Virus record (IMG/VR): IMGVR_UViG_2695420763_000003
DNA: 19,770 bases
Direction: 5' to 3' (one strand)
Source of the DNA: a virus
Lineage: Duplodnaviria > Heunggongvirae > Uroviricota > Caudoviricetes
Position numbers and translations under genes: made by a program. Position 1 is the first letter of the stretch. Each line of letters starts with the position of its first letter. The notes below the pieces were generated by a model. The model saw only the letters and a program-made list of their open reading frames with translations. It had not been told where the DNA came from and did no database searches. Of the stretch, positions 1 to 18,561 are shown one piece after another.

Positions 1-1404
1 CCCGCCAGTATCCCAGCAGATACGGGATACCGACATTTCTGCACCATTCCGGCGGGTATAGGTTTTATTGATGGCCTCATCCACACGCAGCAGCGTCTGT
101 TCATCGTCGTGGCGACCCATAATAATCTGCCGGTCAATCAGCCAGCTTTCCTCACCCGGCCCCCATCCCCATACGCGCATTTCGTAGCGGTCCAGCTGGG
201 AGTCGATACCGGCAGTCAGGTAAGCCACACGGTCAGGAACGGGCGCTGAATAATGCTCTTTCCGCTCTGCCATCACTTCAGCATCCGGACGTTCGCCGAT
301 TTTCGCTTCCCACGTCTCACCGAGCGTGGTGTTCACGAAGGTTTTACGTTTTCCCGTATCCCCTTTCGTCTTCATCCAGTCTTTGACAATCTGCACCCAG
401 GTGGTGAACGGGCTGTACGCCGTCCAGATGTGAAAGGTCACGCTGTCAGGCGGTTCAATCTCTTCACCGGATGACGAAAACCAGAGAATGCCATCACGGG
501 TCCAGATCCCGGTCTTTTCGCAGATATAACGGGCATCAGTGAAGTCCAGTTCCTGCTGGCGGATGACGCAGGCATTATGTTCGCAGAGATAAAACACGCT
601 GGAGGGATCATCCGGCGTCCATTTGAGGCCAAACGGCGTCTCTTTATCGCCAAATTTAAGGTACTGCTCCTCCCCGCAGTGCGGGCAGGCAACATGAAAA
701 CGCATAAAATGCGGGGATTCACTGGCTGCACGCTCAATCTGACAGGTGCCTCTCACTTTGGGCGTGGAGCCACGGATGGACTTTGGCCAGACCGAGCCTT
801 CAATACGCTTGTCACCCAGGAACGTCGGAGAGCCTTCCTGTTCAATATCATCATCAAAAGCAGCAAGTTCATCATAACCCGCCACATCCACCGACTTTTC
901 ACGGTAGTTTTTTGCCGCTTTACCGCCCAGGCACCAGAAGCCACGCCCATTAGTGAAACGCTTCATGGTGAGCGTGTTATCCCGGTGCTTTTTACCATAC
1001 CACGGGGCCAGCGCCAGCAGCGACGGAATATCACGAATAGTCGGCTCAACGTGGGTTTTCATAAAGTTCTCGGCATCACCATCCGTCGGCAACCAGATAA
1101 GGGTGTTGCGCTGCTTATGCTCTATGAAGTAGGCATAAACACCCAGCAGCATTTTGGAATAACCGACACGGGCAGACTTCACCACATTCACCTCACGGAT
1201 GTAGTCGCTGCCCATCGCATTCATGATGGCCCGCTGAAAGGGCAGTGTTTCCCAGCGCCCTTCCTGGTATGCGGATTCTTTCGGGAGATAGTAATTAGCA
1301 TCCGCCCATTCAACGGCGGTCTGTGGCTCCGGCCTGAACAGTGAGCGAAGCCCGGCGCGGACAAAATGCCGCAGCCTGTTAACCTGACTGTTCGATATAT
1401 TCAC
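1..1404 (-). CDS. A: Terminase large subunit gpA, N-terminal part (partial; continues beyond window start)
   Basis: Minus-strand translation from GTG at 1404 reads VNISNSQVNRLRHFVRAGLRSLF... and stays in frame to position 1. Spot checks at 541-600, 721-780, 961-1020 and 1261-1378 give SVFYLCEHNACVIRQQELDF, SIRGSTPKVRGTCQIERAAS, LLALAPWYGKKHRDNTLTMK and TAVEWADANYYLPKESAYQE, matching phage lambda gpA as recalled. Absent from the ORF track because it has no stop inside the window. Confidence 0.9.
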   Translation of the reverse strand, partial: MNISNSQVNRLRHFVRAGLRSLFRPEPQTAVEWADANYYLPKESAYQEGRWETLPFQRAIMNAMGSDYIREVNVVKSARVGYSKMLLGVYAYFIEHKQRNTLIWLPTDGDAENFMKTHVEPTIRDIPSLLALAPWYGKKHRDNTLTMKRFTNGRGFWCLGGKAAKNYREKSVDVAGYDELAAFDDDIEQEGSPTFLGDKRIEGSVWPKSIRGSTPKVRGTCQIERAASESPHFMRFHVACPHCGEEQYLKFGDKETPFGLKWTPDDPSSVFYLCEHNACVIRQQELDFTDARYICEKTGIWTRDGILWFSSSGEEIEPPDSVTFHIWTAYSPFTTWVQIVKDWMKTKGDTGKRKTFVNTTLGETWEAKIGERPDAEVMAERKEHYSAPVPDRVAYLTAGIDSQLDRYEMRVWGWGPGEESWLIDRQIIMGRHDDEQTLLRVDEAINKTYTRRNGAEMSVSRICWDTGG

Positions 1405-1924
1405 TCAGCAACCCCGGTATCAGTTCATCCAGCGCGGCTGCTTTGTTCATGGCTTTGATGATATCCCGTTTCAGGAAATCAACATGTCGGTTTTCCAGTT
1501 CCGGAAAACGCCGCTGCACCGACAGGGGGATCCCGTCGAGAATACTGGCAATTTCACCTGCGATCCGCGACAGCACGAAAGTACAGAATGCGGTTTCCAC
1601 CACTTCAGCGGAGTCTCTGGCATTCTTCAGTTCCTGTGCGTCGGCCTGCGCACGCGTAAGTCGATGGCGTTCGTACTCAATAGTCCCTGGCTGGAGATCT
1701 GTCTCGCTGGCCTGCCGCAGTTCTTCAACTTCCCGGCGCAGCTTTTCGTTCTCAATTTCAGCATCCCTTTCGGCATACCATCTTATAACGGCGGCAGAGT
1801 CATAAAGCACCTCATTACCCTTGCCACCGCCTCGCAGAACGGGCATTCCCTGTTCCTGCCAGTTCTGAATGGTACGGATACTCGCACCGAAAATGTCAGC
1901 CAGCTGCTTTTTGTTGACTTCCAT
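1379..1924 (-). CDS. Nu1: Terminase small subunit gpNu1
   Basis: 181-aa ORF MEVNKKQLADIFGASIRTIQNWQEQGMPVLRGGGKGNEVLYDSAAV... is near-identical to lambda Nu1 as recalled. Its 3' end overlaps the GTG start of A, as in lambda. Confidence 0.95.
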   Translation of the reverse strand: MEVNKKQLADIFGASIRTIQNWQEQGMPVLRGGGKGNEVLYDSAAVIRWYAERDAEIENEKLRREVEELRQASETDLQPGTIEYERHRLTRAQADAQELKNARDSAEVVETAFCTFVLSRIAGEIASILDGIPLSVQRRFPELENRHVDFLKRDIIKAMNKAAALDELIPGLLSEYIEQSG

Positions 1925-1944
1925 TGTTCATTCCACGGACAAAA

Positions 1945-2125
1945 ACAGAGAAAGGAAACGACAGAGGCCAAAAAGCCCGTTTTCAGCACCTGTCGTTTCC
2001 TTTCTTTTCAGGGGGTATTTTAAATAAAAACATTAAGTTACAACGAAGAAGAACGGAAATGCCTTAAACCGGAAAATTTTCATAAATAGCGAAAACCCGC
2101 GAGGTCGCCGCCCCGTAACCTGTCG
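1945..2125. other. cos: cos site: cosB R-element inverted repeats plus cosN cohesive-end sequence
   Basis: The lambda cohesive-end 12-mer GGGCGGCGACCT appears as its complement AGGTCGCCGCCC at 2102-2113. A perfect 15-bp inverted repeat GAAAGGAAACGACAG (1950-1964) / CTGTCGTTTCCTTTC (1990-2004) lies between cosN and the Nu1 start where lambda has its Nu1-binding R elements. Flanking sequence matches both lambda genome ends. Confidence 0.8.
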
Positions 2126-2312
2126 GATCGCCGGAAAGGACCCGCAAAATGATAATAATTATCATCTGCATGTCACAACGTGCATCTACGCAATCAAACC
2201 ACGTCAAATAATCAATTATGACGCAGATATCGTATTAATTGATCTGCATCAACTTAACGTAAAAACAACTTCAGACAATACAAATCAGCGACACTGAATA
2301 CGGGACAACCTC

Positions 2313-2507
2313 ATGTCAACGAAGAACAGAACCCGCAGAACAACAACCCGCAACATCCGCTTTCCTAACCAAATGATTGAACAAATTAACATCGCTCTTG
2401 AGCAAAAAGGGTCTGGGAATTTCTCAGCCTGGGTCATTGAAGCCTGCCGTCGGAGACTAACGTCAGAAAAGAGAGCATATACATCAATCCAAAGTGATGA
2501 TGGATGA
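2313..2507 (+). CDS. Small putative ribbon-helix-helix (Arc/CopG-like) DNA-binding protein, 64 aa
   Basis: Track ORF MSTKNRTRRTTTRNIRFPNQMIEQINIALEQKGSGNFSAWVIEACRRRL... has a basic N-terminus, then a beta-strand-like NIRFP followed by two short helices, the pattern of RHH proteins. An AT-rich palindrome-containing region (2150-2300) lies upstream. The fold is inferred from sequence pattern only. Confidence 0.45.
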   Translation: MSTKNRTRRTTTRNIRFPNQMIEQINIALEQKGSGNFSAWVIEACRRRLTSEKRAYTSIQSDDG

Positions 2508-2694
2508 ACATCCCGGTTTCTTCCACCATCGCACCGGAAAAGCGACTATGAGGGTAACCCTGCGTCTGTCAGCACAGTAAAACCCGGTGTGCATCGTTTT
2601 TGATTATTCCCGCACACTCACGCAGAAGGAATTCCCCGTCGGGCTACGGTCATGGTTAATGCGGGAATACGGCGACGATACAGCGCATAATGTG

Positions 2695-3243
2695 TCAGGC
2701 TTGAATACCTTTATCGAATCCCGGTAATAAAAACTGTCTCTGTCTCTCCAGACGTTCCAGCTTTGCAAGCAATTGAGGTTTTTTCGTTCTCCCCCAGCGA
2801 TTGAGCAGACGGCCTGGCATGCTGGCGACATCCTTCTCTTTCATGTACTCCAGCATTACGGCGTTACGTTCTGCTTCATAACTTTCGCTGTACTTACGGA
2901 GTTCTGCTGACATCCAGTTAAACGCATTGATATAGGCTTCTTTAACAGCATCGGCTTTTGCCCCGTTAAATCCCATAACCAGCATAACGAAGCCACTAAA
3001 GTCCATGCGGTAGTAAATCTGTTTCTTGTCAAAAATACCTAAGTCATTGATTTTCTCGACGGCCCAAAAATGGGTTGTCGAGAATTCCTCAGAACATCTC
3101 AAACATTTAATAGCCCTAATCACATGCTGATGGCGTTTACCAAATGCCCTGGCAATCTGGAAGGTGTCAGTTACCGGTTGACCTTCTGCTGCGGTAACTA
3201 ACTGGCGAAAGTCGAAGTCATGATTCGCAATTAATTCATTCAT
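2695..3243 (-). CDS. Rha-family phage regulatory protein (antirepressor-like)
   Basis: MNELIANHDFDFRQLVTAAEGQPVTDTFQIARAFGKRHQHVIRAIK... carries the GQPVTDS..IA..FGKRH..V.R.I pattern of the Phage_pRha domain. The track ORF extends to a TTG at 3327; I prefer the ATG at 3243. Confidence 0.65.
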   Translation of the reverse strand: MNELIANHDFDFRQLVTAAEGQPVTDTFQIARAFGKRHQHVIRAIKCLRCSEEFSTTHFWAVEKINDLGIFDKKQIYYRMDFSGFVMLVMGFNGAKADAVKEAYINAFNWMSAELRKYSESYEAERNAVMLEYMKEKDVASMPGRLLNRWGRTKKPQLLAKLERLERQRQFLLPGFDKGIQA

Positions 3244-3391
3244 GGCGTTGCCTGCTTCTTGAAATGAACCTTTGCCGCACAGGAAACCAGCCCACCGAGG
3301 CTCGCCAGCACTAACTGGTATCCTCAAAGGCCCATTCCAAAGGGTCAGGTTCGGTGTTTATTGTGCGCTGCGGTGCGCGGTGAAATACCGG

Positions 3392-3420
3392 TACAAAAAT
3401 GCCCCGCATCTGCGAGGCAT
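3392..3420 (-). terminator. Intrinsic terminator downstream of Rz/Rz1
   Basis: On the minus strand AUGCCUCGCA-GA-UGCGGGGCAU forms a 10-bp stem (one G-U pair) followed by UUUUUGU. It sits about 40 nt after the Rz stop. Confidence 0.5.
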
Positions 3421-3460
3421 TTTCCTGAAAGTCACTTGTTAAATTTCAGTGAAATTAAAA

Positions 3461-3898
3461 TTATTTTAAGCACTGCGTCCTGATGTATTCCTGCAGGTAG
3501 TTAACCTGCGCGGTTATCTTGTCGATTCCACCTCGGAGACGGTAATAATTGAGTTCAGCATCTGCTGTAAGTCCTGGGCTTTCTCCATCGCCCATGCTGC
3601 TGGCTCCGGTCGTTGACTTTGCACAGGTGGCGGAGACTTGCAGGCGCTTACGCCCAGCAGAAACATCAGCACGGAGACTTTCGATAGTCGCATTAGCATC
3701 AGCAAGCTCCTTTGTGTATCTGGCGTCAAGTTCTGCTACATCACGTTGCCGCTTCTGCATATCAGCGATGATGGATGTGGCTTTATCGCGCTGCTCTTTG
3801 TAGGCGATGGCGTTATCACGGTAATGATTAACAGCCCATGACAGGCAGGCGATAATGCAGATAACCAGAGCGGAGATAATAACGGTTACCCTGCTCAT
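3461..3898 (-). CDS. Rz: i-spanin Rz
   Basis: [39 protein letters not shown]... resembles lambda Rz with its N-terminal TM segment. The ATG at 3898 overlaps the R stop (ATGA). The track ORF starts at an upstream GTG (3910). Confidence 0.85.
3514..3699 (-). CDS. Rz1: o-spanin Rz1 lipoprotein, embedded in the +1 frame of Rz
   Basis: Track ORF 3514..3729 contains [36 protein letters not shown]..., a signal peptide with lipobox-like VSAC and a proline-rich mature region, fully inside Rz as in lambda. Exact start is uncertain. Confidence 0.6.
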
Positions 3899-4392
3899 TG
3901 TTGCCCCCACAAACAGACTTCACGCTCAATCTCGCGGCGAGTCATCAGCCCTTTCCATTGCTTACCGCCAGCGTATGTCCAGCGCCGTAGCTGATCACAT
4001 GCGCCTTTGATATCGCCCTGGTTTATTTTGCGAAGAAGCGTCGATGTTCTGAAATTGCCAGCGCCCACGTTGTAAACGAACGAGTAAAGAGCGCCGCGCG
4101 TTGTTTCCGGTATATCGACGTTGATGTACGGGTTAATTTGTCTGGCGACCGTGGCAAGGTCTTTATTCAGGAGGGCTTTGCATTCTGCTTCGGTATACGT
4201 TTTACCGGGCATGATGTCTTTTCCGGTGTGTCCGTGACATACAGTCCATACGCCAACGATATCTTTGTATGGTATGTAGCTGACACCTTCCAGACCATCG
4301 TTACCACCTGGACCAGTGATGAGCACAGACGCTATGGCAACAGCCCCACTACCAATAGCAGCTGCAACAGCCTTGCGTAATGACGGCGACAT
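3895..4392 (-). CDS. R: SAR endolysin (P21 R-type lysozyme)
   Basis: 165-aa [60 protein letters not shown]... is near-identical to the phage 21 R endolysin as recalled, with its glycine/alanine-rich N-terminal SAR segment. Confidence 0.9.
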
Positions 4393-4598
4393 TATTCACC
4401 TCTCGCAGCCTTACGCTTATCTTCTTTAATCTTGAAATAAAGATTTGTCAGATACGTCAGCAGGCCAAACAGCAGACTTCCCAGCACACCTATTGCCACC
4501 CACTGGGACGGAGAGACTTTGTCCAGCAGCTGCAGTAACCAGTATCCCGTCCCCACCGCTGACGTGGTGTATGACACACCTGTTGTGATTTTTTCCAT
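4392..4598 (-). CDS. S: Pinholin (S21-type holin)
   Basis: 68-aa [68 protein letters not shown] resembles phage 21 pinholin S21. Its stop overlaps the R start. Confidence 0.85.
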
Positions 4599-4640
4599 CT
4601 GATGTATGTCTCCGTCACCGCCGACAGAAAATGAAAGTAA

Positions 4641-4679
4641 AGAAAAACAAAAAAGCCGCCAGTGTCACCCACTGACGGC
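4641..4679 (-). terminator. Intrinsic terminator about 45 nt upstream of the S start, in the late-transcript direction
   Basis: Minus-strand RNA GCCGUCAGUG-GGUGA-CACUGGCGGC forms a 10-bp stem (one G-U pair) followed by UUUUUUGUUUUUC. Confidence 0.5.
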
Positions 4680-4853
4680 CAACGCCGGGAGCCGTGATTA
4701 TGGCATTCAGGCTCTGCTAAAAATGCCAGATAACATTCCGGCCTCCCCTGATTCAGGTTATAAATGACACAATATCTTGACAACATCCGTCACTGTCTGT
4801 CAGAAAATGTACTGCCATATAGAAGCAACATGTGAAGTACATCTATCCTTTTG

Positions 4854-4896
4854 AGCCAGCACCTCTCCACCGAAAGTCAGTGCTGGCTGTTTTTTT
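4854..4896 (+). terminator. Plus-strand intrinsic terminator (unit A)
   Basis: 9-bp stem AGCCAGCAC (4854-4862) / GUGCUGGCU (4880-4888), 17-nt loop, then GTTTTTTT. Confidence 0.5.
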
Positions 4897-5003
4897 CCTT
4901 AATAAGGCATCTGTAACTGAAACAATCCGCATATTGATAATATATTGACAGGCATCATTGCTGTCTGTGAAAAATAAGTCTCTACAAACATATAAGGCCT
5001 TTT

Positions 5004-5045
5004 AGCCAGCGTCTTCTTTTTCAGGTCAGTCGCTGGCTTTTTTTA
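5004..5045 (+). terminator. Plus-strand intrinsic terminator (unit B)
   Basis: 8-bp stem AGCCAGCG (5004-5011) / CGCTGGCT (5031-5038), 19-nt loop, then TTTTTTT. It ends exactly at the stop codon of the convergent esterase gene. Confidence 0.5.
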
Positions 5046-6896
5046 TTATGCTGCCGGTGCATTTATCTCCAGCATCAGACTTTCTATCTCAACGCCATAC
5101 GCTGCATTTTTTGTAACATCCGTCAGCGTCAGCGCATTCAGTCCCAGTGTCAGACTGTCTTTTATAACCTGGAATGCCGGGCCAGCCACTCCATTCAGTT
5201 TCGGAGTAACCGTGGCACTGCCGGCGGTGAACACCAGCTCCAGCGTCTGCCAGTCGTTACCGTAATCGCCGAACTCCCCCAGCTTCGTGTTTCCGGCTTT
5301 CCTGTGATGCATCAGATTCACTCTGCCGTCAGTGGTCTGAGTGAAGTACGACATCAGGAACGGATTACCGGTACCCGTCATCGCCACACCATCAGGAACG
5401 GGAGCATCCGTATACAGATAAATCCCCAGCCCGAACTGATTGTTGGTCAGTGCGCCTGACAGGCGGAACTTACAGGTCAGTCTGCCGCCCTGTGTCAGCA
5501 GGGTAATTGCGTCATCCACCGGATGCGTCAGGGACCAGGTTTTATTGCTCTGCTTGGTGATCTTAAATACACCATCTGACAACTGAATTCCGCCATCCTT
5601 AATGCTCCAGCCCTGCGCAGCAGCCTCTCCGGCTGCCGGCAGCAGGGAGATTGTGCGAACGGACGTATCTGCAGACGGACCCGATGGCGTGTTGCCGCCG
5701 GGCGAGGGTTTGATTTCCGGTGCCTTACCACTGATGAAGGCTGAGGTGCGCCCGGCTGCGTTCAGAATAGCGGTTGCCAGACGATCCGGAATAATGCTCC
5801 TGCGCGCCCATGAACTGAAATGTGTCGGGCGGTTTGATGATACCTGGTTTCCATTCGTTCTCGATGCCGCACCGTAATATCCTGATGCCGGAATATCCGG
5901 ATCTTCTGCCGGCGCGTTAGTGGCGGTATTGACGCCGTTACCGTCTGTCATGAAGGGCACAAAATAAACGCCCTCACTCTCCCTGTTTTTGTACGCCCCG
6001 TAAATGGTGTTGTACTGGGTGCCGTAGGTATTTTTCCAGTAATACGTCGTGTCACCACAAATCCACGGCACATCTGCAGCACTGCCACCATGGCACTGCG
6101 CGTTAAACACGGAGAGGTCAGCACGAAACTGTGTCAGCATGGCTGTAAACAGCGCAGGTTGCTGTGCGTGGGTGGCGGCGCTCATGTCAAACTCTCCCTG
6201 CATCCAGCACACCGCCAGCAACACATTTTTCGGGTTCTTCTGTAATGCAGCTTTGGTGCGCGCAATCAGGTCCTGATATAACGGTTTACCCACACCCCAG
6301 CGCGCCGAATCCTGGCTGGCCCCCGTGTCCGCACTGAATGTCCCCTCCGCGCCCTGGGTAAATGCCGAACCACCACGACAGCATGGTACCAGCAGGATCC
6401 CCGCGTTATTCGGGATATACGGGAGCAGTTTTTTGGCAATATGTAAACCCTGGCCGACACAGCCGTACTGCCCTTTGCTCAGGTCTGCCTTCGGATGATT
6501 CAGCGTACTCATATCCTGCACATCATGCAGGCAGTGGTCGGCCGGAATAATATCGTTATATCTGCAGGCAGCCCCACCCGGCGTCACTGTACTGCGGCGC
6601 GCCAGCTGTTTAATGCGCGGATCCGGAGCATCGTATGAATCCGGCAGCGGAAGCCCTTCACCGTAAGCCATGGCATTGGATTGCCCGGCCAGTACGATGA
6701 CGTAGTACCAATCCGGCTCAGTTGCACCACTGACCACCACATCACCTTCTGCTGTAATCGCCTGCATCAGGGTATAAGGGGTTATGGCCACCGGACTACC
6801 AAACGGCTGCCAGCCCTCTTTCAGTTTGTGTGTCAGCTTTTCCGCAAGGTCTGACGGCGACGCCGCCCTGACAACATCATAATGTTTAAATGTCAT
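5046..6896 (-). CDS. nanS-p: Prophage sialate O-acetylesterase, NanS-p type (DUF1737 N-domain + SGNH/SASA esterase + C-terminal domain)
   Basis: 616-aa ORF. The N-terminus MTFKHYDVVRAASPSDLAEKLTHKLKEGWQPFGSPV is DUF1737-like. VIVLAGQSNAMAYGEG carries the GQSN motif of SGNH/SASA esterases. The C-terminal ~200 aa are Gly/Thr-rich and beta-rich. Position between Q and S matches nanS-p genes of Stx and related prophages. Confidence 0.8.
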   Translation of the reverse strand: MTFKHYDVVRAASPSDLAEKLTHKLKEGWQPFGSPVAITPYTLMQAITAEGDVVVSGATEPDWYYVIVLAGQSNAMAYGEGLPLPDSYDAPDPRIKQLARRSTVTPGGAACRYNDIIPADHCLHDVQDMSTLNHPKADLSKGQYGCVGQGLHIAKKLLPYIPNNAGILLVPCCRGGSAFTQGAEGTFSADTGASQDSARWGVGKPLYQDLIARTKAALQKNPKNVLLAVCWMQGEFDMSAATHAQQPALFTAMLTQFRADLSVFNAQCHGGSAADVPWICGDTTYYWKNTYGTQYNTIYGAYKNRESEGVYFVPFMTDGNGVNTATNAPAEDPDIPASGYYGAASRTNGNQVSSNRPTHFSSWARRSIIPDRLATAILNAAGRTSAFISGKAPEIKPSPGGNTPSGPSADTSVRTISLLPAAGEAAAQGWSIKDGGIQLSDGVFKITKQSNKTWSLTHPVDDAITLLTQGGRLTCKFRLSGALTNNQFGLGIYLYTDAPVPDGVAMTGTGNPFLMSYFTQTTDGRVNLMHHRKAGNTKLGEFGDYGNDWQTLELVFTAGSATVTPKLNGVAGPAFQVIKDSLTLGLNALTLTDVTKNAAYGVEIESLMLEINAPAA

Positions 6897-6939
6897 TATT
6901 CCTCCCGGCCGGGATAGTGTATTAAATCAGATATGGAGT

Positions 6940-6984
6940 GGGCTGTAGTCCGGAAGCCTGAATGACACACGGGGACTACAGCCC
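6940..6984. repeat. Perfect 12-bp inverted repeat (stem-loop) in the 5' leader of the esterase gene
   Basis: GGGCTGTAGTCC (6940-6951) and GGACTACAGCCC (6973-6984) separated by 21 nt, about 45 nt upstream of the ATG at 6896. No adjacent T-run. Confidence 0.6.
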
Positions 6985-7079
6985 AAGAAATGAAGAAGGC
7001 CACGCAGTTGCGCAGCCTGATAAACCCTGGTTAAAATCCACACGATAACAACACAACAATATCAGTATCTCATGCTATT

Positions 7080-7105
7080 GCCCGAACCCATTCGGGCATT
7101 TTTTA
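7080..7105 (+). terminator. Plus-strand intrinsic terminator
   Basis: GCCCGAA-CCCA-TTCGGGC (7-bp stem) followed by ATTTTTT. Confidence 0.45.
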
Positions 7106-7110
7106 CCCAT

Positions 7111-7141
7111 AAAAAATGCCCCTCCGGAGAGGGGCATTTTT
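7111..7141. terminator. Bidirectional intrinsic terminator
   Basis: AAAAAA-TGCCCCTC-CGGA-GAGGGGCA-TTTTT: 8-bp GC-rich stem with an A-run on one side and a T-run on the other. Confidence 0.55.
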
Positions 7142-7338
7142 GCATGCACATTCTTTTTCTTGCATGGTGCCGGGTGCCTCCCGGTGAATTCAGTATCAGC
7201 ACCTGAATCCGCGATTATCACATATACCTACTTGCTGATTGCCCCTCCGCACAGGGGGATTCACCATGCAGTAGTATTTTTAATAAACAGCAAATAAAAA
7301 AATCAAGCATTATGCAGGCTGTTTCTTTTTATCACCGG

Positions 7339-7470
7339 CTACAGCAATACCACAATGCCGCAGACCAGCACCCCATCCGCCAGCACCGACATGATTCTGC
7401 TGGTGAAATCCACCATCACCACCAGAAACAGCAGGAGTGCAGCCACAGCCAGGCGCAGTTTTACCGTCAC
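7339..7470 (-). CDS. Putative 43-aa hydrophobic small protein, start overlapping the stop of the TerB-like frame
   Basis: GTG at 7470..7468 overlaps TGA at 7469..7467 (GTGA). Translation is VTVKLRLAVAALLLFLVVMVDFTSRIMSVLADGVLVCGIVVLL, a single predicted TM helix. Below the ORF-track length cutoff. Expression is unproven. Confidence 0.3.
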   Translation of the reverse strand: MTVKLRLAVAALLLFLVVMVDFTSRIMSVLADGVLVCGIVVLL

Positions 7471-7960
7471 AGGTGATTCTCCAGACGAAGACCCAGAACA
7501 CCGGCAATCTCTTCCAGCACCTTGCGCTCTTCCGGCTCAATTTCGCCGTCTGCCTCCGCAATGGCCACCGCCACATCCAGCACATCTTCCGCTTCACGCG
7601 TATCGTGTTTCACATCCTCGATCTCACGTAACGCCGCACGACGACCAATTTTAAAGTTCGTATCCAGCTGACCGATAATGGTTGCGCTAATCGCATTAAT
7701 TTCTGACGTAAACGCGGACAGCGCAGGCTGATTACGCAGTACCTGTTCGATCTTCGCTTTCTAGGAAGCCTCACATTCACCATCTGCACAGGCCACCAGG
7801 TAGGCAGCATTAATAACCGCCTGTGCCAGATCGCGTTTCTCAAACTTTCCTTTTTCCGGTTAACGTGACACACCAATAACTCTTGTCGAAAAAGCCAGCA
7901 AGCTGAAAGACCGGTATTCACAACCACCAGCGCGTTTACTGTACTGGCGTGATTTCAGTC
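7467..7960 (-). pseudogene. Degraded TerB-family (tellurite-resistance-like) gene
   Basis: Minus-strand segments translate to ...AGFFDK..., ...PEKGKFEKRDLAQAVINAAYLVACADGECEAS, then in-frame TAG (7761-7763), then KAKIEQVLRNQPALSAFTSEINAISATIIGQLDTNFKIGRRAALREIEDVKHDTREAEDVLDVAVAIAEADGEIEPEERKVLEEIAGVLGLRLENHL*. These segments show TerB-like ADG and EEK motifs. They are broken by an in-frame TAA (7860-7862), the TAG, and at least one frameshift near the N-terminus. No Met-initiated intact ORF remains. Confidence 0.5.
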
Positions 7961-7990
7961 ATAAAAAAACCCGCCTGGCGACGGGTGTAA
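7961..7990 (-). terminator. tR'-like intrinsic terminator of the short pR' leader RNA
   Basis: Minus-strand RNA ACCCG-UCGCCAGG-CGGGU followed by UUUUUUUAU, about 40-60 nt downstream of the predicted pR' start. Confidence 0.6.
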
Positions 7991-8033
7991 AAAATCTTCT
8001 AACGTCAGGCATAAAACGCCCATCGTTAGGGCA

Positions 8034-8061
8034 AATTTACCACAGATTCGGGAAAAATCAA
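8034..8061 (-). promoter_or_regulatory. Late promoter pR' with adjacent qut-like region
   Basis: Minus-strand TTGATT (-35, 8061..8056), 16-nt spacer, TAAATT (-10, 8039..8034). The segment GGTAAATTTGCCCTAACGATGGG closely matches the lambda pR' -10/start region GGTAAATTTGACTCAACGATGGG as recalled. It lies directly downstream of Q. Confidence 0.65.
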
Positions 8062-8066
8062 CAAAG

Positions 8067-8888
8067 CTATCTGGTCACCTTTTTCAGTTGTTGTTCTGCC
8101 CATGCTTCTTCAATATCAAACTGCACCACCAGCGTATCGTAAAAACGTTTAACTGTTTTTTTCCATGTATCAAGAGATATGGCATCGGTTACATTACATA
8201 TGGCATTAAATGCCTCCGTTGAAGGTAATCTTTCATAGCCACGACCACCACAACGCTGGCAGTCTCTGATAACAGGCATACCACGTTTTACCGACTCTTC
8301 ACGATGAATGGCAACACCGCGCCCACGACAATCTTTACAGGCAGTGGATACCTCTCCCTTCCCTCCACACTCCGGACAGGCAACTTTTACCACCTCCCTG
8401 ACTTTTTTCCATTCCTCCCAGTAAGACGGATACACGCCTTTTGTGCACTTTGCCCACACTGGCGGCTTACCATCCGGATACTGGATCTTGTTTGTAAAAA
8501 CCTCGCTTTCAATAAATTTTTTTCCGTGACAACAGGGGCACTGTTTTTTGCTCGCCGCGCTACGGGCATAATCTTCAAACGCATACGAAGCCATAATACG
8601 CATCACTGCCGGTTTTATTTCTGCCGGGAGTTTTCTTAACGCCGCCACGCGATCACACCGACTGAGTGCATATTCTGTCAGCAATTCTGTTGCCCGCTCT
8701 CTGTCATTCATACTAATGCCCATTTTCCCAAGGAACGCAGAAAACCCCATCTCAGCCCAATTCTGTGTCATGCCCTGCGCGGCCATCACATCAGTGATAC
8801 TCAGCGTATCTTTCGACGTTGAGGCCGATGCATCAGTCAGGCCGGGGGATTTTGGGGAGTAGTATTTCGGTAAATCTTCCAGTTTCAT
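8067..8888 (-). CDS. Q: Late-gene antiterminator Q (Qin quuQ-like, 273 aa)
   Basis: Sits between rusA and pR'. The N-terminus MKLEDLPKYYSPKSP... resembles Qin-type Q as recalled. Contains four CxxCxGxG-like motifs (CPCCHGKK, CPECGGKG, CKDCRGRG, CQRCGGRG). Start overlaps the rusA stop (ATGA). Confidence 0.8.
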   Translation of the reverse strand: MKLEDLPKYYSPKSPGLTDASASTSKDTLSITDVMAAQGMTQNWAEMGFSAFLGKMGISMNDRERATELLTEYALSRCDRVAALRKLPAEIKPAVMRIMASYAFEDYARSAASKKQCPCCHGKKFIESEVFTNKIQYPDGKPPVWAKCTKGVYPSYWEEWKKVREVVKVACPECGGKGEVSTACKDCRGRGVAIHREESVKRGMPVIRDCQRCGGRGYERLPSTEAFNAICNVTDAISLDTWKKTVKRFYDTLVVQFDIEEAWAEQQLKKVTR

Positions 8889-9259
8889 TTTTTGACCTGC
8901 CCTTCAAGCATTATGGGGTAAATTTTCACCCCCAGACGTCCACCAGATACTGGCTGAGCACGAACGATATTGATTTCATCAAACTGCTCATCGTCCATTA
9001 GCAACCCCGCATGCGTCAGCGCATCCAGCGGCGCTTTCAGAATATTGTCCAGGTCACGGCGGCGCTTATCCGGTGGCTCGGCAATAATCTTTATCGCCAG
9101 CCTTCCGGACAGGCTTAATTTCAGCCGCTGCTGGCGAACAATAAGCGCCACAGCCCGGCGATAACGCTCACCGGCTTTTGATACAAAATATGTGCTGCCA
9201 CGACGTCGCCAGTAGGTGTTCACCGTCGGCGGGTAAAGCAAAACAAACTCTATACGCAT
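8885..9259 (-). CDS. rusA: Holliday-junction resolvase RusA
   Basis: 124-aa ORF with RusA family motifs (...PPDKRRRDLDNILKAPLDALTHAGLLMDDEQ...). AGAGG RBS upstream. Confidence 0.9.
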   Translation of the reverse strand: MRIEFVLLYPPTVNTYWRRRGSTYFVSKAGERYRRAVALIVRQQRLKLSLSGRLAIKIIAEPPDKRRRDLDNILKAPLDALTHAGLLMDDEQFDEINIVRAQPVSGGRLGVKIYPIMLEGQVKK

Positions 9260-9271
9260 CAGTAACCTCTT

Positions 9272-10318
9272 TTACCCGAGCACGCCGGTTGCAAAGGCGT
9301 GATCAAGAAAACGAAAAATTAAATCAACCTGGGAACCATGCTTTTCTTCAAATGCCAGCGGATCAGCATGAAGTTCGTTGTGATGCTCCCGACACAACGG
9401 TAGCGTGAAAATATCGTGGGCTTTTGTCCCTATTCCGCCCTGACCATGACCAATCAGGTGATGGGGATCGTCGGCTGGCTTACCACAACACGCACACGGC
9501 TGTGTCTTTACCCAGCGTGTGTATTTCTCATTTACCCAGCGGCGACGTTTAGGTCGCTTCATTAAAGATTCCGGAGACTCCGGATCAACAGCAATGCTGA
9601 CCACCGTCTTTTCCTGTGGCGGGTTTTGCTGGTGGGCGTGAGGCAGCGGCGCAAGATTTTTTGTGCGCTGCTTCAGTATGCTGGTGGCGGTCGGTTCTCC
9701 CGGTATGATGTCGCTTTCGCGGTACACCGGGCGGATTTTTTCCGCACGTAATCCCAGCGAACGACGCAATACTGCCTCCGGTAGCGCGTCCGCCACCTGA
9801 TTGCAGACAGCCCACCAGGATAATTCAGCCAGCGATAATTCCCGCTCCTGCGTGCCATTCATTGCATGGCGTATGACGTCAATCATCCATGCTGACAGGT
9901 TTTGGTGAGCAAGTTGCCCGAGTGATTCGGAAGTCTGGTCACGCAGCTGGTTGTCGCAGTGCCAGCACAACACCATCGCGCCGGTACCGTAACGATGTAT
10001 GACGGTTTCACTGTGATGGTAGTCACCATGAGGCCACTGGCAGGATTTGACATGACGCAGGAGCCAGTCAGACAGTGCACCAGCACCGCCTGCAGCGCGA
10101 ATCACCCGTTCGTTTCTGAAAAATGGCAGTAATGATTTATCTTCCGCCAGCGGCTGGCGAACGGCAGGAACGACCCCGGACGACAGATTACGCATGCTTT
10201 TCGGTTCAGGCTCCACCAGCACTCGAGGGTTATGAAATACCTGCATGGATTCACGGCCCGGCTTAACGATCACCAGCCCGAGTTCCGGTACCAGAACAGG
10301 TCGAAGTAATACCCGCAC
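9272..10318 (-). CDS. ydfU: DUF968-family protein with C-terminal HNH-like Cys/His motif (Qin YdfU-like)
   Basis: 348-aa MRVLLRPVLVPELGLVIVKPGRES... ending ...CACCGKPADDPHHLIGHGQGG...CREHHNELH. Matches my recollection of Qin YdfU. GTG start. Confidence 0.75.
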   Translation of the reverse strand: MRVLLRPVLVPELGLVIVKPGRESMQVFHNPRVLVEPEPKSMRNLSSGVVPAVRQPLAEDKSLLPFFRNERVIRAAGGAGALSDWLLRHVKSCQWPHGDYHHSETVIHRYGTGAMVLCWHCDNQLRDQTSESLGQLAHQNLSAWMIDVIRHAMNGTQERELSLAELSWWAVCNQVADALPEAVLRRSLGLRAEKIRPVYRESDIIPGEPTATSILKQRTKNLAPLPHAHQQNPPQEKTVVSIAVDPESPESLMKRPKRRRWVNEKYTRWVKTQPCACCGKPADDPHHLIGHGQGGIGTKAHDIFTLPLCREHHNELHADPLAFEEKHGSQVDLIFRFLDHAFATGVLG

Positions 10319-10765: not shown

Positions 10766-10921
10766 TTACTCCTCAGGTTCGTAAGCTGTGAAGACAGCGA
10801 CCTCCGTCTGGCCGGTTCGGATTCGTACCTCGCAGAGGTCTTTCCTCGTTACCAGTGCCGTCACTATGACGGTTAAACAGATGACGATCAGGGCGATTAA
10901 CATCGCCTTTTGCTGCTTCAT
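10766..10921 (-). CDS. hokD: Type I toxin Hok (HokD/RelF-like, 51 aa)
   Basis: MKQQKAMLIALIVICLTVIVTALVTRKDLCEVRIRTGQTEVAVFTAYEPEE with AAGGAG RBS. The track ORF 10766..10978 adds an in-frame 19-codon upstream extension (mok-like). The upstream leader carries a 9-bp inverted repeat (11043-11051 / 11070-11078). Confidence 0.9.
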   Translation of the reverse strand: MKQQKAMLIALIVICLTVIVTALVTRKDLCEVRIRTGQTEVAVFTAYEPEE

Positions 10922-11166
10922 AGCCTGCTTCTCCTTGCCTTTCGGCGCGTAAGAGGCTAACCTACATGTGTCTAGCATGAAATTGGCCTCAGATTAATGT
11001 TAGGCGTCTTGCAGGACGCGTAATGTTAACTGGGGCTTTTCTCTGTCTGCCTTACGGTGGCATGCCCGAGGCAGACAGCCTCAAGCGCCCGCAGCAATTC
11101 TACTTAACTCTCGCTTTACCGCAAACCGTTTTTACCCGATATGGGAATTCCCATATCGTAATGAAT

Positions 11167-18507: not shown

Positions 18508-18561
18508 TTTTCTGGTGACTTTTGGCGGTATCAGTTCTACTCCGTGACTGCTCTGCCGCCC
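18508..18561 (+). ncRNA. dicF: DicF small RNA (ftsZ-targeting sRNA processed from the dicB operon transcript)
   Basis: TTTCTGGTGACTTTTGGCGGTATCAGTTCTACTCCGTGACTGCTCTGCCGCCC followed by TTTTT matches the 53-nt K-12 DicF sequence as I recall it, with about 3 substitutions. It ends in a GGCGG...GCCGCC terminator hairpin. Coordinates are from my own line indexing and were not re-verified to the base. Confidence 0.75.

What the first reader, a model, noticed from the sequence alone, without database searches (positions are those of the whole stretch)
2150..2507. Orphan RHH-type regulator next to cos, behind an AT-rich palindromic region
A 64-aa RHH-like protein with an unusually basic N-terminus sits alone on the plus strand between cos and the Rha gene. 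Its upstream region carries palindromes such as GATAATAATTATCATC (about 2150-2165). RHH proteins are usually antitoxins or autoregulators, but no partner gene is adjacent.
Basis: partly seen in the sequence, partly recalled or inferred. Interest (0 to 1): 0.35.

Follow-up and report, generated by a model that had tools for sequence, protein, structure and literature searches.

The report
Lambda ylcI gene beside Fur box
The small gene is ylcI, a conserved but never-characterised gene found in phage lambda and most E. coli prophages that probably encodes a ribbon-helix-helix DNA-binding protein, and the palindrome upstream of it is a known binding site for the host iron regulator Fur, not a new operator.

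Summary
Window 2313-2507 (+) encodes a 64-aa basic protein. It is the only plus-strand gene between cos/Nu1 and a Rha-type gene, and a perfect palindrome lies at 2149-2165.

The gene is not new. It belongs to the YlcI/YnfO family (Pfam DUF3950). It sits at the same place in phage lambda (unannotated in NC_001416), in K-12 DLP12 (ylcI) and Qin (ynfO), and in 86% of complete E. coli genomes. It is under strong purifying selection (dN/dS 0.03-0.2).

A ribbon-helix-helix fold is supported by four weak but concordant lines of evidence. No toxin partner exists.

The palindrome TGATAAT-N-ATTATCA is a perfect Fur-box core next to cosQ. The homologous K-12 sites (nohA, nohB) were published as strong Fur sites. 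The nohA site was gel-shifted, and Fur ChIP-exo marks the equivalent spot in CFT073, where ylcI is absent.

Best reading: a prophage-expressed RHH repressor of unknown target, possibly tuned by iron.

Distant relatives are the lone opposite-strand gene in phage satellites. Two of them are fused to a small-terminase DNA-binding domain.

The entity is already known. Its function is still open. Interest is modest.

The parts
2313..2507 (+). ylcI-type gene (64 aa; stop codon included). YlcI/YnfO family, DUF3950.
   Evidence: ORF. Pfam PF13132 E 2e-20 (72.8 bits, cutoff 25). NCBIfam NF041551 37.6 bits (cutoff 30). PHROG 949 E 2e-35. 97% nt identity to K-12 ylcI and 99% to lambda over codons 1-52. 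dN/dS 0.03-0.2.
2349..2492 (+). Predicted ribbon-helix-helix core: strand residues 13-18 (RNIRFP), helix A residues 19-32, turn GSGN, helix B from residue 37.
   Evidence: AF2 model with H19-32 and H37-60, mean pLDDT 68.7. hhalign register with Arc. Invariant I15, R16, F37, V41 and near-invariant F17, S38, W40, A44, C45.
2469..2504 (+). Hypervariable C-terminal tail (residues 53-64). A mosaic junction between phage types.
   Evidence: Translations of eight alleles share residues 1-49, and their tails become unrelated within a few residues after that.
2145..2165 (.). Fur box. Perfect 7-1-7 core TGATAAT-A-ATTATCA at 2150-2164, and a 16/19 match to the classical Fur box at 2145-2163.
   Evidence: 0.01 expected by chance for the 19-mer at up to 3 mismatches. 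Homologous K-12 sites nohB (25.3 bits, predicted) and nohA (22.3 bits, -233 from nohA, gel-shifted) in PMC2189734. In the window the centre is 233 bp from the Nu1 ATG. The arms are conserved in lambda, DLP12 and 21-like prophages.
2137..2143 (-). cosQ heptamer (GGGTCCT on the minus strand), 6 bp from the Fur-box core.
   Evidence: Sequence. Identity as cosQ rests on my knowledge of lambda. 2102-2143 is 100% conserved against a 21-like prophage.
2102..2113 (-). cosN 12-nt cohesive-end sequence (GGGCGGCGACCT on the minus strand).
   Evidence: Sequence. Alignment with the lambda right and left ends.
2196..2312 (+). Conserved non-coding block directly upstream of the gene. Candidate promoter, leader or operator region. 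Contains the inverted repeat ATCAATTA-N17-TAATTGAT (2211-2243).
   Evidence: 89-90% identical to 21-like prophages, where third codon positions of the gene are only 63-69% identical. Inverted repeat. No fold signal, z = 0.0. The best plus-strand sigma-70 match anywhere in 2100-2312 is only 8/12.
2149..2176 (-). Promoter-like site GTGACA-16-TATCAT facing cos and Nu1. Its -10 lies inside the Fur box. Function doubtful.
   Evidence: 10/12. In lambda the -10 reads TATCAC, and 21-like loci carry a 7-bp insertion in the spacer.

Best explanation
The ORF is the ylcI gene of lambdoid phages. The same gene sits at the right end of phage lambda itself.

It most likely encodes a dimeric ribbon-helix-helix DNA-binding protein. 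In that model residues about 12-17 (T-R-N-I-R-F) pair with the partner's strand to form the ribbon read in the major groove. The basic N-terminal arm adds backbone contacts, and the two helices (19-32 and 37 onward) form the dimer core.

The gene is transcribed against the direction of the late operon. It is therefore expected to be made from the quiescent prophage and shut off by opposing late transcription. It probably acts as a small sequence-specific repressor or autoregulator whose target is still unknown.

The palindrome upstream is not its operator. It is a host Fur box abutting cosQ, so iron, through Fur, may tune transcription that starts there.

Shown: identity, conservation, purifying selection, the Fur-box match, and published Fur binding to homologous sites.

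Inferred: the RHH fold (my estimate about 0.8), DNA binding and repressor role (about 0.55), and Fur control of ylcI specifically (about 0.3). The confidence of 0.5 is for the composite statement; identity as ylcI alone is about 0.98.
For: Identity and spread.
- The gene is in the same place in lambda, DLP12 and three terminase types.
- It occurs in 4685 of 5426 complete E. coli genomes, median 2 copies.

Real protein. dN/dS is 0.03-0.2. The IRF...NFSAWV.EAC core is invariant across genera.

RHH fold.
- AF2 topology.
- Foldseek lists dominated by NikR, Arc, MazE, NikA, HicB, ParD and CopG.
- 8 of 21 members hit the HicB-like PHROG (best 7e-5) and others hit Arc-like repressor PHROGs.
- hhalign P = 1.9e-4, in register with the Arc strand.

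Regulator-like setting in relatives.
- In 22 of 39 distant loci the gene is the lone opposite-strand gene between the AlpA/AntA and primase operons of satellites.
- Repeats or palindromes surround its -10, for example GGTACGTACC twice around TATAAT, and 3-4 ..AACAC repeats followed by TATAGT.

Transcribed in K-12. ybcW-ylcI is listed as a convergent excludon. Low read counts appear in a K-12 RNA-seq set.

Fur box. The box and the gene keep a fixed spacing, 149 nt in 83 of 108 viral contigs.
Against: - No single RHH test is statistically significant for this protein. Foldseek E is about 1, the window protein's own PHROG cross-hit is E 0.02, and it has no Pfam RHH hit.
- The model is a monomer of modest confidence (pLDDT 68.7).
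- No convincing sigma-70 promoter is found on the plus strand.
- No operator can be assigned. The window's ATCTGCAT repeats are degenerate in lambda and DLP12.
- No motif is shared with the Rha upstream region.
- In a fur deletion, ylcI and ynfO reads fall to zero rather than rise, and nohD/nohQ do not rise. Counts are very low, but this argues against simple Fur repression.
- No experiment on YlcI was found.
Confidence: 0.5

Rival explanations
1. cos-associated DNA-binding accessory. YlcI binds near the packaging site and modulates cos recognition, cos cleavage or late read-through into the terminase genes, rather than acting as an ordinary transcription factor.
For: - The gene always lies at the lysis/packaging junction, in phages with three different terminase types.
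- It keeps a fixed distance from cosQ and the Fur box.
- Two satellite relatives are fusions of DUF3950 with the N-terminal DNA-binding domain of a small terminase. Terminase_2 positions 1-53 score 29 and 45 bits against a cutoff of 26.1.
- That domain is 66% identical to the TerS N-terminus of a helper-type phage.
Against: - In HNH-type phages an HNH gene and about 400 bp separate the gene from cos.
- In satellites the gene lies in the regulatory zone, several kb from terS.
- As far as I know, cos function in lambda has been mapped without any need for this region.
- Another relative (P0241, 175 aa) carries a long unrelated C-terminal extension, so C-terminal additions are not peculiar to TerS.
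Confidence: 0.12
2. The transcript matters more than the protein. Antisense transcription from the ylcI promoter collides with or pairs with late-orientation neighbours (Rha here, ybcW in lambda and DLP12, AntA in satellites) and keeps them silent in the prophage.
For: - ybcW-ylcI was scored as a convergent excludon in K-12 RNA-seq.
- The gene is convergent with an antirepressor-type gene here (Rha), in satellites (AntA) and near KilA-N/ORF11CD3 in L005.
Against: - Strong purifying selection acts on the amino-acid sequence (dN/dS 0.03-0.2), while synonymous sites are free to vary.
- The protein motif is conserved across genera whose DNA is unalignable.
- This mechanism could coexist with a protein function.
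Confidence: 0.1
3. Orphan antitoxin-like protein that neutralises a toxin encoded elsewhere, a HicB- or ParD-like RHH acting in trans.
For: The best named cross-hits are HicB-like antitoxin PHROG 497 (8 of 21 members) and antitoxin structures in Foldseek (MazE9, ParD2, TacA, VapB).
Against: - No toxin gene is adjacent in any context examined.
- The match covers only the RHH DNA-binding part.
- The C-terminal tail, where RHH antitoxins carry their toxin-binding segment, is short and hypervariable.
Confidence: 0.05
4. The palindrome is YlcI's own operator, with Fur binding incidental.
For: The palindrome and the gene co-occur in 108 of 114 viral contigs at a fixed spacing. RHH proteins commonly autoregulate through palindromes.
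Against: - It matches the Fur 7-1-7 core perfectly. Fur gel-shifts the homologous nohA site, and the nohB site was predicted as a strong cluster.
- A degenerate copy next to cosQ is Fur-bound in vivo in CFT073, where ylcI is absent.
- ylcI exists without it in HNH-type phages.
- It lies 156 bp from the ATG.
Confidence: 0.08

Closest known systems
YlcI (E. coli K-12 DLP12 prophage) and YnfO (Qin prophage); Pfam DUF3950, NCBIfam NF041551, PHROG 949
   Same: Same gene. 97% nt identity to K-12 ylcI over 416 of the 421 query bases, which span the upstream region and the gene. Same position between the Nu1 homologue and the lysis-side morons, and same orientation. All curated cut-offs are passed.
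   Different: Only the last residues differ (..IQSDDG here..IKSDEE in lambda and DLP12). The family has no assigned function.
Unannotated ORF at the right end of phage lambda (NC_001416 complement, about 48112-48306)
   Same: 62 of 64 residues identical, and 100% over the first 58. Same distance from cosN, cosQ and the Fur box.
   Different: Lambda carries ybcW, ybcV and bor beyond it, where this prophage carries a Rha-type gene.
Arc and Mnt repressors of phage P22 (ribbon-helix-helix)
   Same: Size, and a basic N-terminal arm followed by strand-helix-helix. The strand motif N-I-R-F-P aligns with Arc N-L-R-W-P. Arc appears in the Foldseek list, and Arc-like PHROGs are hit by family members.
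   Different: No significant sequence homology for this protein. It is not divergent from an antirepressor promoter as in immI; the nearby Rha gene is convergent. The operator is unknown.
Fur sites 'nohA' and 'nohB' of E. coli K-12 (Chen et al. 2007, PMC2189734)
   Same: Same sequence element at the same place, 233 bp upstream of the Nu1 homologue. It is a perfect 7-1-7 core.
   Different: The paper assigned the sites to nohA and nohB. The divergent ylcI/ynfO genes are not mentioned there. No regulatory outcome is established, and fur-deletion data show no derepression.
Lone opposite-strand DUF3950 genes of Gram-negative phage satellites (PICI/cf-PICI/P4-like), including DUF3950-TerS-HTH fusions
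   Same: Same conserved core (IRF...NFS.WV.EAC). Always the single gene opposing long co-directional operons.
   Different: 34-47% identity, a different strand motif (KGIRFP or KNIRFE), and different upstream repeats. They lie next to AlpA/AntA and primase genes, not next to cos.

Membership tests
YlcI/YnfO family (NF041551; Pfam DUF3950 PF13132) | Score above the curated cut-offs of the family models | tested here: met
   PF13132 72.8 bits against cutoff 25. NF041551 37.6 bits against cutoff 30.
YlcI/YnfO family (NF041551; Pfam DUF3950 PF13132) | Conserved NFS motif and core IRF...NFSAWV.EAC | tested here: met
   Residues 15-17 are IRF and 36-45 are NFSAWVIEAC. I15, R16, F37 and V41 are invariant in 21 diverse members.
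YlcI/YnfO family (NF041551; Pfam DUF3950 PF13132) | Position in lambdoid prophages between the lysis cassette and the terminase genes, opposite strand | tested here: met
   Window, lambda, DLP12, BP-4795, 21-like prophages.
Ribbon-helix-helix (Arc/MetJ/CopG) superfamily | Strand-helix-helix topology of about 45 residues | tested here: inconclusive
   The monomer AF2 model gives an extended N-terminus, H19-32 and H37-60, at pLDDT 68.7. The strand can only form in a dimer, which the tool cannot model.
Ribbon-helix-helix (Arc/MetJ/CopG) superfamily | Significant structural or profile similarity to known RHH proteins | tested here: inconclusive
   Foldseek top hits are nearly all RHH, but with E 0.1-3. 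hhalign P = 1.9e-4, probability 47%. Family-level PHROG cross-hits reach 7e-5. No Pfam RHH hit for this protein.
Ribbon-helix-helix (Arc/MetJ/CopG) superfamily | Alternating polar and hydrophobic strand residues, and a Gly-containing turn with an N-capping Ser/Thr/Asn before helix B | tested here: met
   N14-I15-R16-F17, and G35-N36-F37-S38 before helix B, read directly from the sequence.
Ribbon-helix-helix (Arc/MetJ/CopG) superfamily | Homodimerisation and sequence-specific DNA binding | not testable with these tools
   Needs EMSA or footprinting, or a multimer model.
Type II toxin-antitoxin antitoxin (RHH class) | Adjacent co-transcribed toxin gene | tested here: not met
   No co-directional neighbour in the window or in any related locus.
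P22 immI-type Arc/Mnt module | RHH gene divergent from or co-transcribed with an antirepressor gene, sharing operators | tested here: not met
   The Rha-type gene is convergent. No motif is shared between the two upstream regions.
Fur box (for the palindrome) | Match to the 19-bp consensus GATAATGATAATCATTATC or the 7-1-7 core TGATAATNATTATCA | tested here: met
   14/14 to the 7-1-7 core and 16/19 to the 19-mer, with 0.05 and 0.01 expected by chance. The 7-1-7 consensus is from my knowledge (Baichoo and Helmann 2002); the string also appears as a Fur box in papers found.
Fur box (for the palindrome) | Fur binding shown experimentally | not tested
   Not tested on this sequence. The homologous nohA site was gel-shifted and found by Fur titration, and nohB was predicted at 25.3 bits. 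A ChIP-exo peak lies at the cosQ-adjacent site of a CFT073 prophage.

The most novel reading that the evidence does not exclude
Phage lambda and most E. coli lambdoid prophages carry an overlooked regulatory module at the right genome end. It consists of a host Fur site abutting cosQ and a lysogen-expressed RHH repressor (YlcI) that couples iron status to a prophage decision, such as silencing antirepressor-type morons or unscheduled terminase expression at cos.

In this reading the same protein family supplies the master repressor of a large class of Gram-negative phage satellites. The RHH-TerS-HTH fusions would then act as cos-binding interference factors.
Probability: 0.15. Interest if true: 0.65.

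Novelty: already known. Interest (0 to 1): 0.3.

Why it matters
The gene and the Fur site are both already catalogued, so nothing new is discovered as an entity.

It still has some value.
- The best-studied phage carries a strongly conserved, probably DNA-binding gene next to cos. It is missing from the reference annotation and has no known role.
- A perfect Fur box abuts cosQ, and its purpose was never explained.
- Relatives of the protein occupy the position expected of a repressor in many phage satellites.

A few simple experiments on lambda would settle whether this is an iron-linked prophage regulator.

Tried and rejected
- Antitoxin reading: rejected, because there is no partner gene in any context.
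- Palindrome as the protein's operator: set aside in favour of the Fur box. The gene and the box each occur without the other.
- PDB sequence searches, with the single protein and with a profile, gave only spurious L16 and pAgo hits.
- The Pfam scan of 21 members gave a single RHH_6 hit at E 0.092.
- A second large protein search with the profile listed only close relatives, so it made no bridge to other families.
- The 'transcriptional repressor' label under the Pasteurella phage Pmp7 match belongs to a gene on the opposite strand.
- Rfam found nothing in 1900-3500.
- The leader (2170-2330) and the conserved block 2508-2700 show no excess folding, with z between 0.0 and +0.55.
- Promoter scans found no plus-strand site better than 8/12.
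- The repeats ATCTGCAT and GCAGAT upstream are not conserved in lambda or DLP12.
- No motif is shared with the Rha upstream region. The 19-nt inverted repeat flanking the gene is within chance.
- The lambda ribosome-profiling paper could not be retrieved. Literature searches gave no functional work on YlcI, YnfO or DUF3950, and none linking Fur to cosQ.
- Many apparent homologues are noisy or contaminating copies of lambda control DNA and were excluded.

Full report
**What is there**

The window is a lambdoid prophage read in reverse of the lambda map.
- The large terminase gene and Nu1 are on the minus strand. Nu1 is at 1379-1924 (Pfam Phage_Nu1, E 2e-101).
- The cohesive-end sequence is at 2102-2113 and the cosQ heptamer at 2137-2143.
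- A 64-aa ORF is on the plus strand at 2313-2507.
- Beyond it, on the minus strand, lie a Rha/ORF11CD3 gene (2695-3327), Rz, lysozyme and holin.

The ORF is the only plus-strand gene in this stretch. Its N-terminus is very basic.

**Identity of the gene**

The protein passes the curated cut-offs of Pfam DUF3950 (72.8 bits against 25) and NCBIfam YlcI_YnfO_N (37.6 against 30). It matches PHROG 949, a family of unknown function.

The same gene lies at the same place in several genomes.
- Phage lambda: no feature is annotated there in NC_001416, and it is 'hypothetical protein' in a recent record.
- K-12 DLP12, as ylcI, with 97% nt identity over 416 of the 421 query bases.
- 4685 of 5426 complete E. 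coli genomes, with a median of two copies and up to 13.

The position is also kept in phages with two other packaging modules. These are 21-like terminases and HNH-TerS-TerL.

**Is it a real protein gene?**

Over codons 1-52, eight alleles give dN/dS of 0.03-0.20 at dS 0.28-2.0. After about residue 49 the tails become unrelated, so the 3' end is a mosaic junction.

Across genera the core IRF...NFSAWV.EAC is invariant or nearly so.

The family is small. A scan of 1.84 billion cluster representatives found 141 at E up to 0.001, and many of those are noisy copies of lambda.

**Fold**

No single test is significant, but all point the same way.
- The AF2 monomer model (pLDDT 68.7) has an extended N-terminus and helices 19-32 and 37-60.
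- Foldseek against the PDB returns NikR, Arc, MazE9, NikA, HicB, ParD, TacA and VapB, with TM about 0.5 and rmsd about 2 Å over about 40 residues, but E about 1.
- Named BFVD hits are again Arc-type, CopG, NikA and other RHH proteins.
- 8 of 21 family members hit the HicB-like PHROG (best 7e-5), and several hit Arc-like repressor PHROGs.
It aligns RNIRFPNQMIEQI with Arc's FNLRWPREVLDLV.

I take the RHH fold as likely, at about 0.8. No toxin or other partner gene is adjacent in any context, so 'orphan' is right.

**The palindrome is a Fur box**

TGATAAT-N-ATTATCA is the 7-1-7 core of the Fur consensus (my knowledge). The window matches it 14/14, and matches the classical 19-mer 16/19, with 0.05 and 0.01 expected by chance.

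Chen et al. 2007 (PMC2189734) list strong Fur clusters labelled nohB (25.3 bits, DLP12) and nohA (22.3 bits, 233 bp upstream of nohA, Qin). The nohA site was gel-shifted by Fur and had been found earlier by Fur titration. In the window the palindrome centre is exactly 233 bp from the Nu1 ATG, so it is the same site.

The arms are invariant in lambda, DLP12 and 21-like prophages, while the centre base varies.

Fur ChIP-exo in CFT073 (PMC10164565) has an iron-replete peak at 1424699-1424711. In that genome this falls on GTGATAATTATTCTCG, a few bases from GGGTCCT (cosQ), in a prophage that has no ylcI.

Conversely, HNH-type phages have ylcI only 41 bp from the HNH start codon, with no such box. 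The box therefore belongs to the cos-proximal block and is not demonstrably YlcI's operator.

The two are usually linked, however. Of 114 viral contigs with cosQ plus a perfect box and enough flank, 108 carry ylcI. The start codon is 149 nt from the end of the box in 83 of them and 156 nt in 18.

**What Fur does there is unclear**

The best promoter-like site (10/12) is on the minus strand. Its -10 lies inside the box and it faces cos and Nu1. It is weakened in lambda and disrupted by a 7-bp insertion in 21-like loci.

Plus-strand candidates reach only 8/12.

The fur-deletion RNA-seq of PMC10164565 shows the following.
- nohD and nohQ are unchanged in MG1655.
- In a second K-12 strain (locus tags Y75_RS..., which I take to be W3110), ylcI, ynfO, ybcV, ybcW and nohD fall rather than rise.
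- All counts are very low.

Simple Fur repression is therefore not supported.

**Upstream block**

The 117 bp before the ATG (2196-2312) are 89-90% identical to 21-like prophages. In the same comparison, third codon positions of the gene are only 63-69% identical. This non-coding block is therefore constrained. It shows no fold signal and holds a conserved ATCAATTA-N17-TAATTGAT inverted repeat. It is the best place to look for the promoter and the true operator.

**Relatives elsewhere**

In 22 of 39 distant loci, from Serratia, Pectobacterium, Xenorhabdus, Proteus, Enterobacter and others, the gene is the single opposite-strand gene of a phage satellite. A separate look-up in Morganella showed the same layout. 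The gene lies between int-AlpA-AntA and the primase-capsid operon. Its upstream regions carry repeats around a TATAGT or TATAAT -10. That is the layout expected of a repressor.

Two satellite proteins fuse DUF3950 to the N-terminal DNA-binding domain of a small terminase. That domain is 66% identical to the TerS of a helper-type phage.

Some members look chromosomal.

**Verdict**

The RHH and orphan readings are supported. The operator reading of the palindrome is replaced by a documented Fur site.

The gene is a known, widely annotated, uncharacterised family member, so novelty is 'already known'. What remains open is its function and the reason for a Fur box at cosQ.

Noticed in passing
L020-L057 and L070, L072; many P-ids: Dozens of 'genomes' of unrelated taxa (Kitasatospora, Cohnella, Streptomyces, Shewanella, Flavobacterium and others) and many ENA contigs of about 3.5 kb or about 48.4 kb carry 100%-identical or frameshifted lambda ylcI near a contig end. 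This is most likely lambda control DNA left in assemblies (nanopore 3.6-kb control strand or whole-lambda spike-in). It inflates the apparent host range of the family.
   Followed up: partly
L005 about 1218-10043 (E. coli CP027459.1): An 8.8-kb satellite is inserted inside the large-terminase gene of an HNH-type lambdoid prophage. It carries int, an AlpA-like gene, two DUF3950 genes, primase, TerS and a capsid-like gene. A 15-bp overlap marks the junctions. This 'helper-embedded PICI' layout is already described in PMC10111431. That paper does not mention the DUF3950 genes.
   Followed up: yes
L005 8001-8363 (P0252) and L016 4714-5103 (P0193): Fusion proteins of DUF3950 with the N-terminal HTH of a small terminase (Terminase_2 positions 1-53). 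The HTH of P0252 is closer to the helper-type phage TerS (66%) than to the satellite's own TerS (53%). Possible cos-binding interference or regulatory factor.
   Followed up: partly
window 2508-2700: A block of about 190 bp between the 3' end of ylcI and the last late-orientation gene is conserved in BP-4795, L005 and L019. It has no Rfam hit, no fold signal on either strand, and no PHROG for its 46-aa ORF. Unexplained.
   Followed up: partly
L100 995-1021 (CFT073, NC_004431 1424694-1424720): A degenerate Fur box (TGATAATTATTCTCG) lies next to cosQ in a prophage without ylcI. It coincides with a published iron-replete Fur ChIP-exo peak. This suggests Fur binding beside cosQ is a feature of lambda-type cos regions in general.
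   Followed up: partly
L010 6190-6300: Three tandem repeats of about 32 bp, each with a hairpin (for example CCCGATATCATCGGGG), lie just downstream of the satellite DUF3950 gene. Function unknown.
   Followed up: no
L058, L073, L090 around 6001: DUF3950 homologues (46-60% identity) sit in apparently chromosomal, non-prophage settings. One is between a gene resembling rsmF and genes resembling yebY, yebZ and yobA in Citrobacter. Another is next to cytochrome bd-like genes in Rouxiella. The neighbours were named by eye from translations.
   Followed up: no
window 7043-7295, 10916-11090, 18510-18561: Rfam gathering-level hits: AgvB (7043-7104 +), STnc100 (7105-7295 -), sok (10916-11090 -) and DicF (18510-18561 +).
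   Followed up: no
window 3396-3423 (minus strand): A terminator-like hairpin (AAAATGCCTCGCA/TGCGGGGCATTTT followed by T's) lies just after Rz and before the Rha-type gene. The Rha gene may therefore have its own promoter.
   Followed up: no
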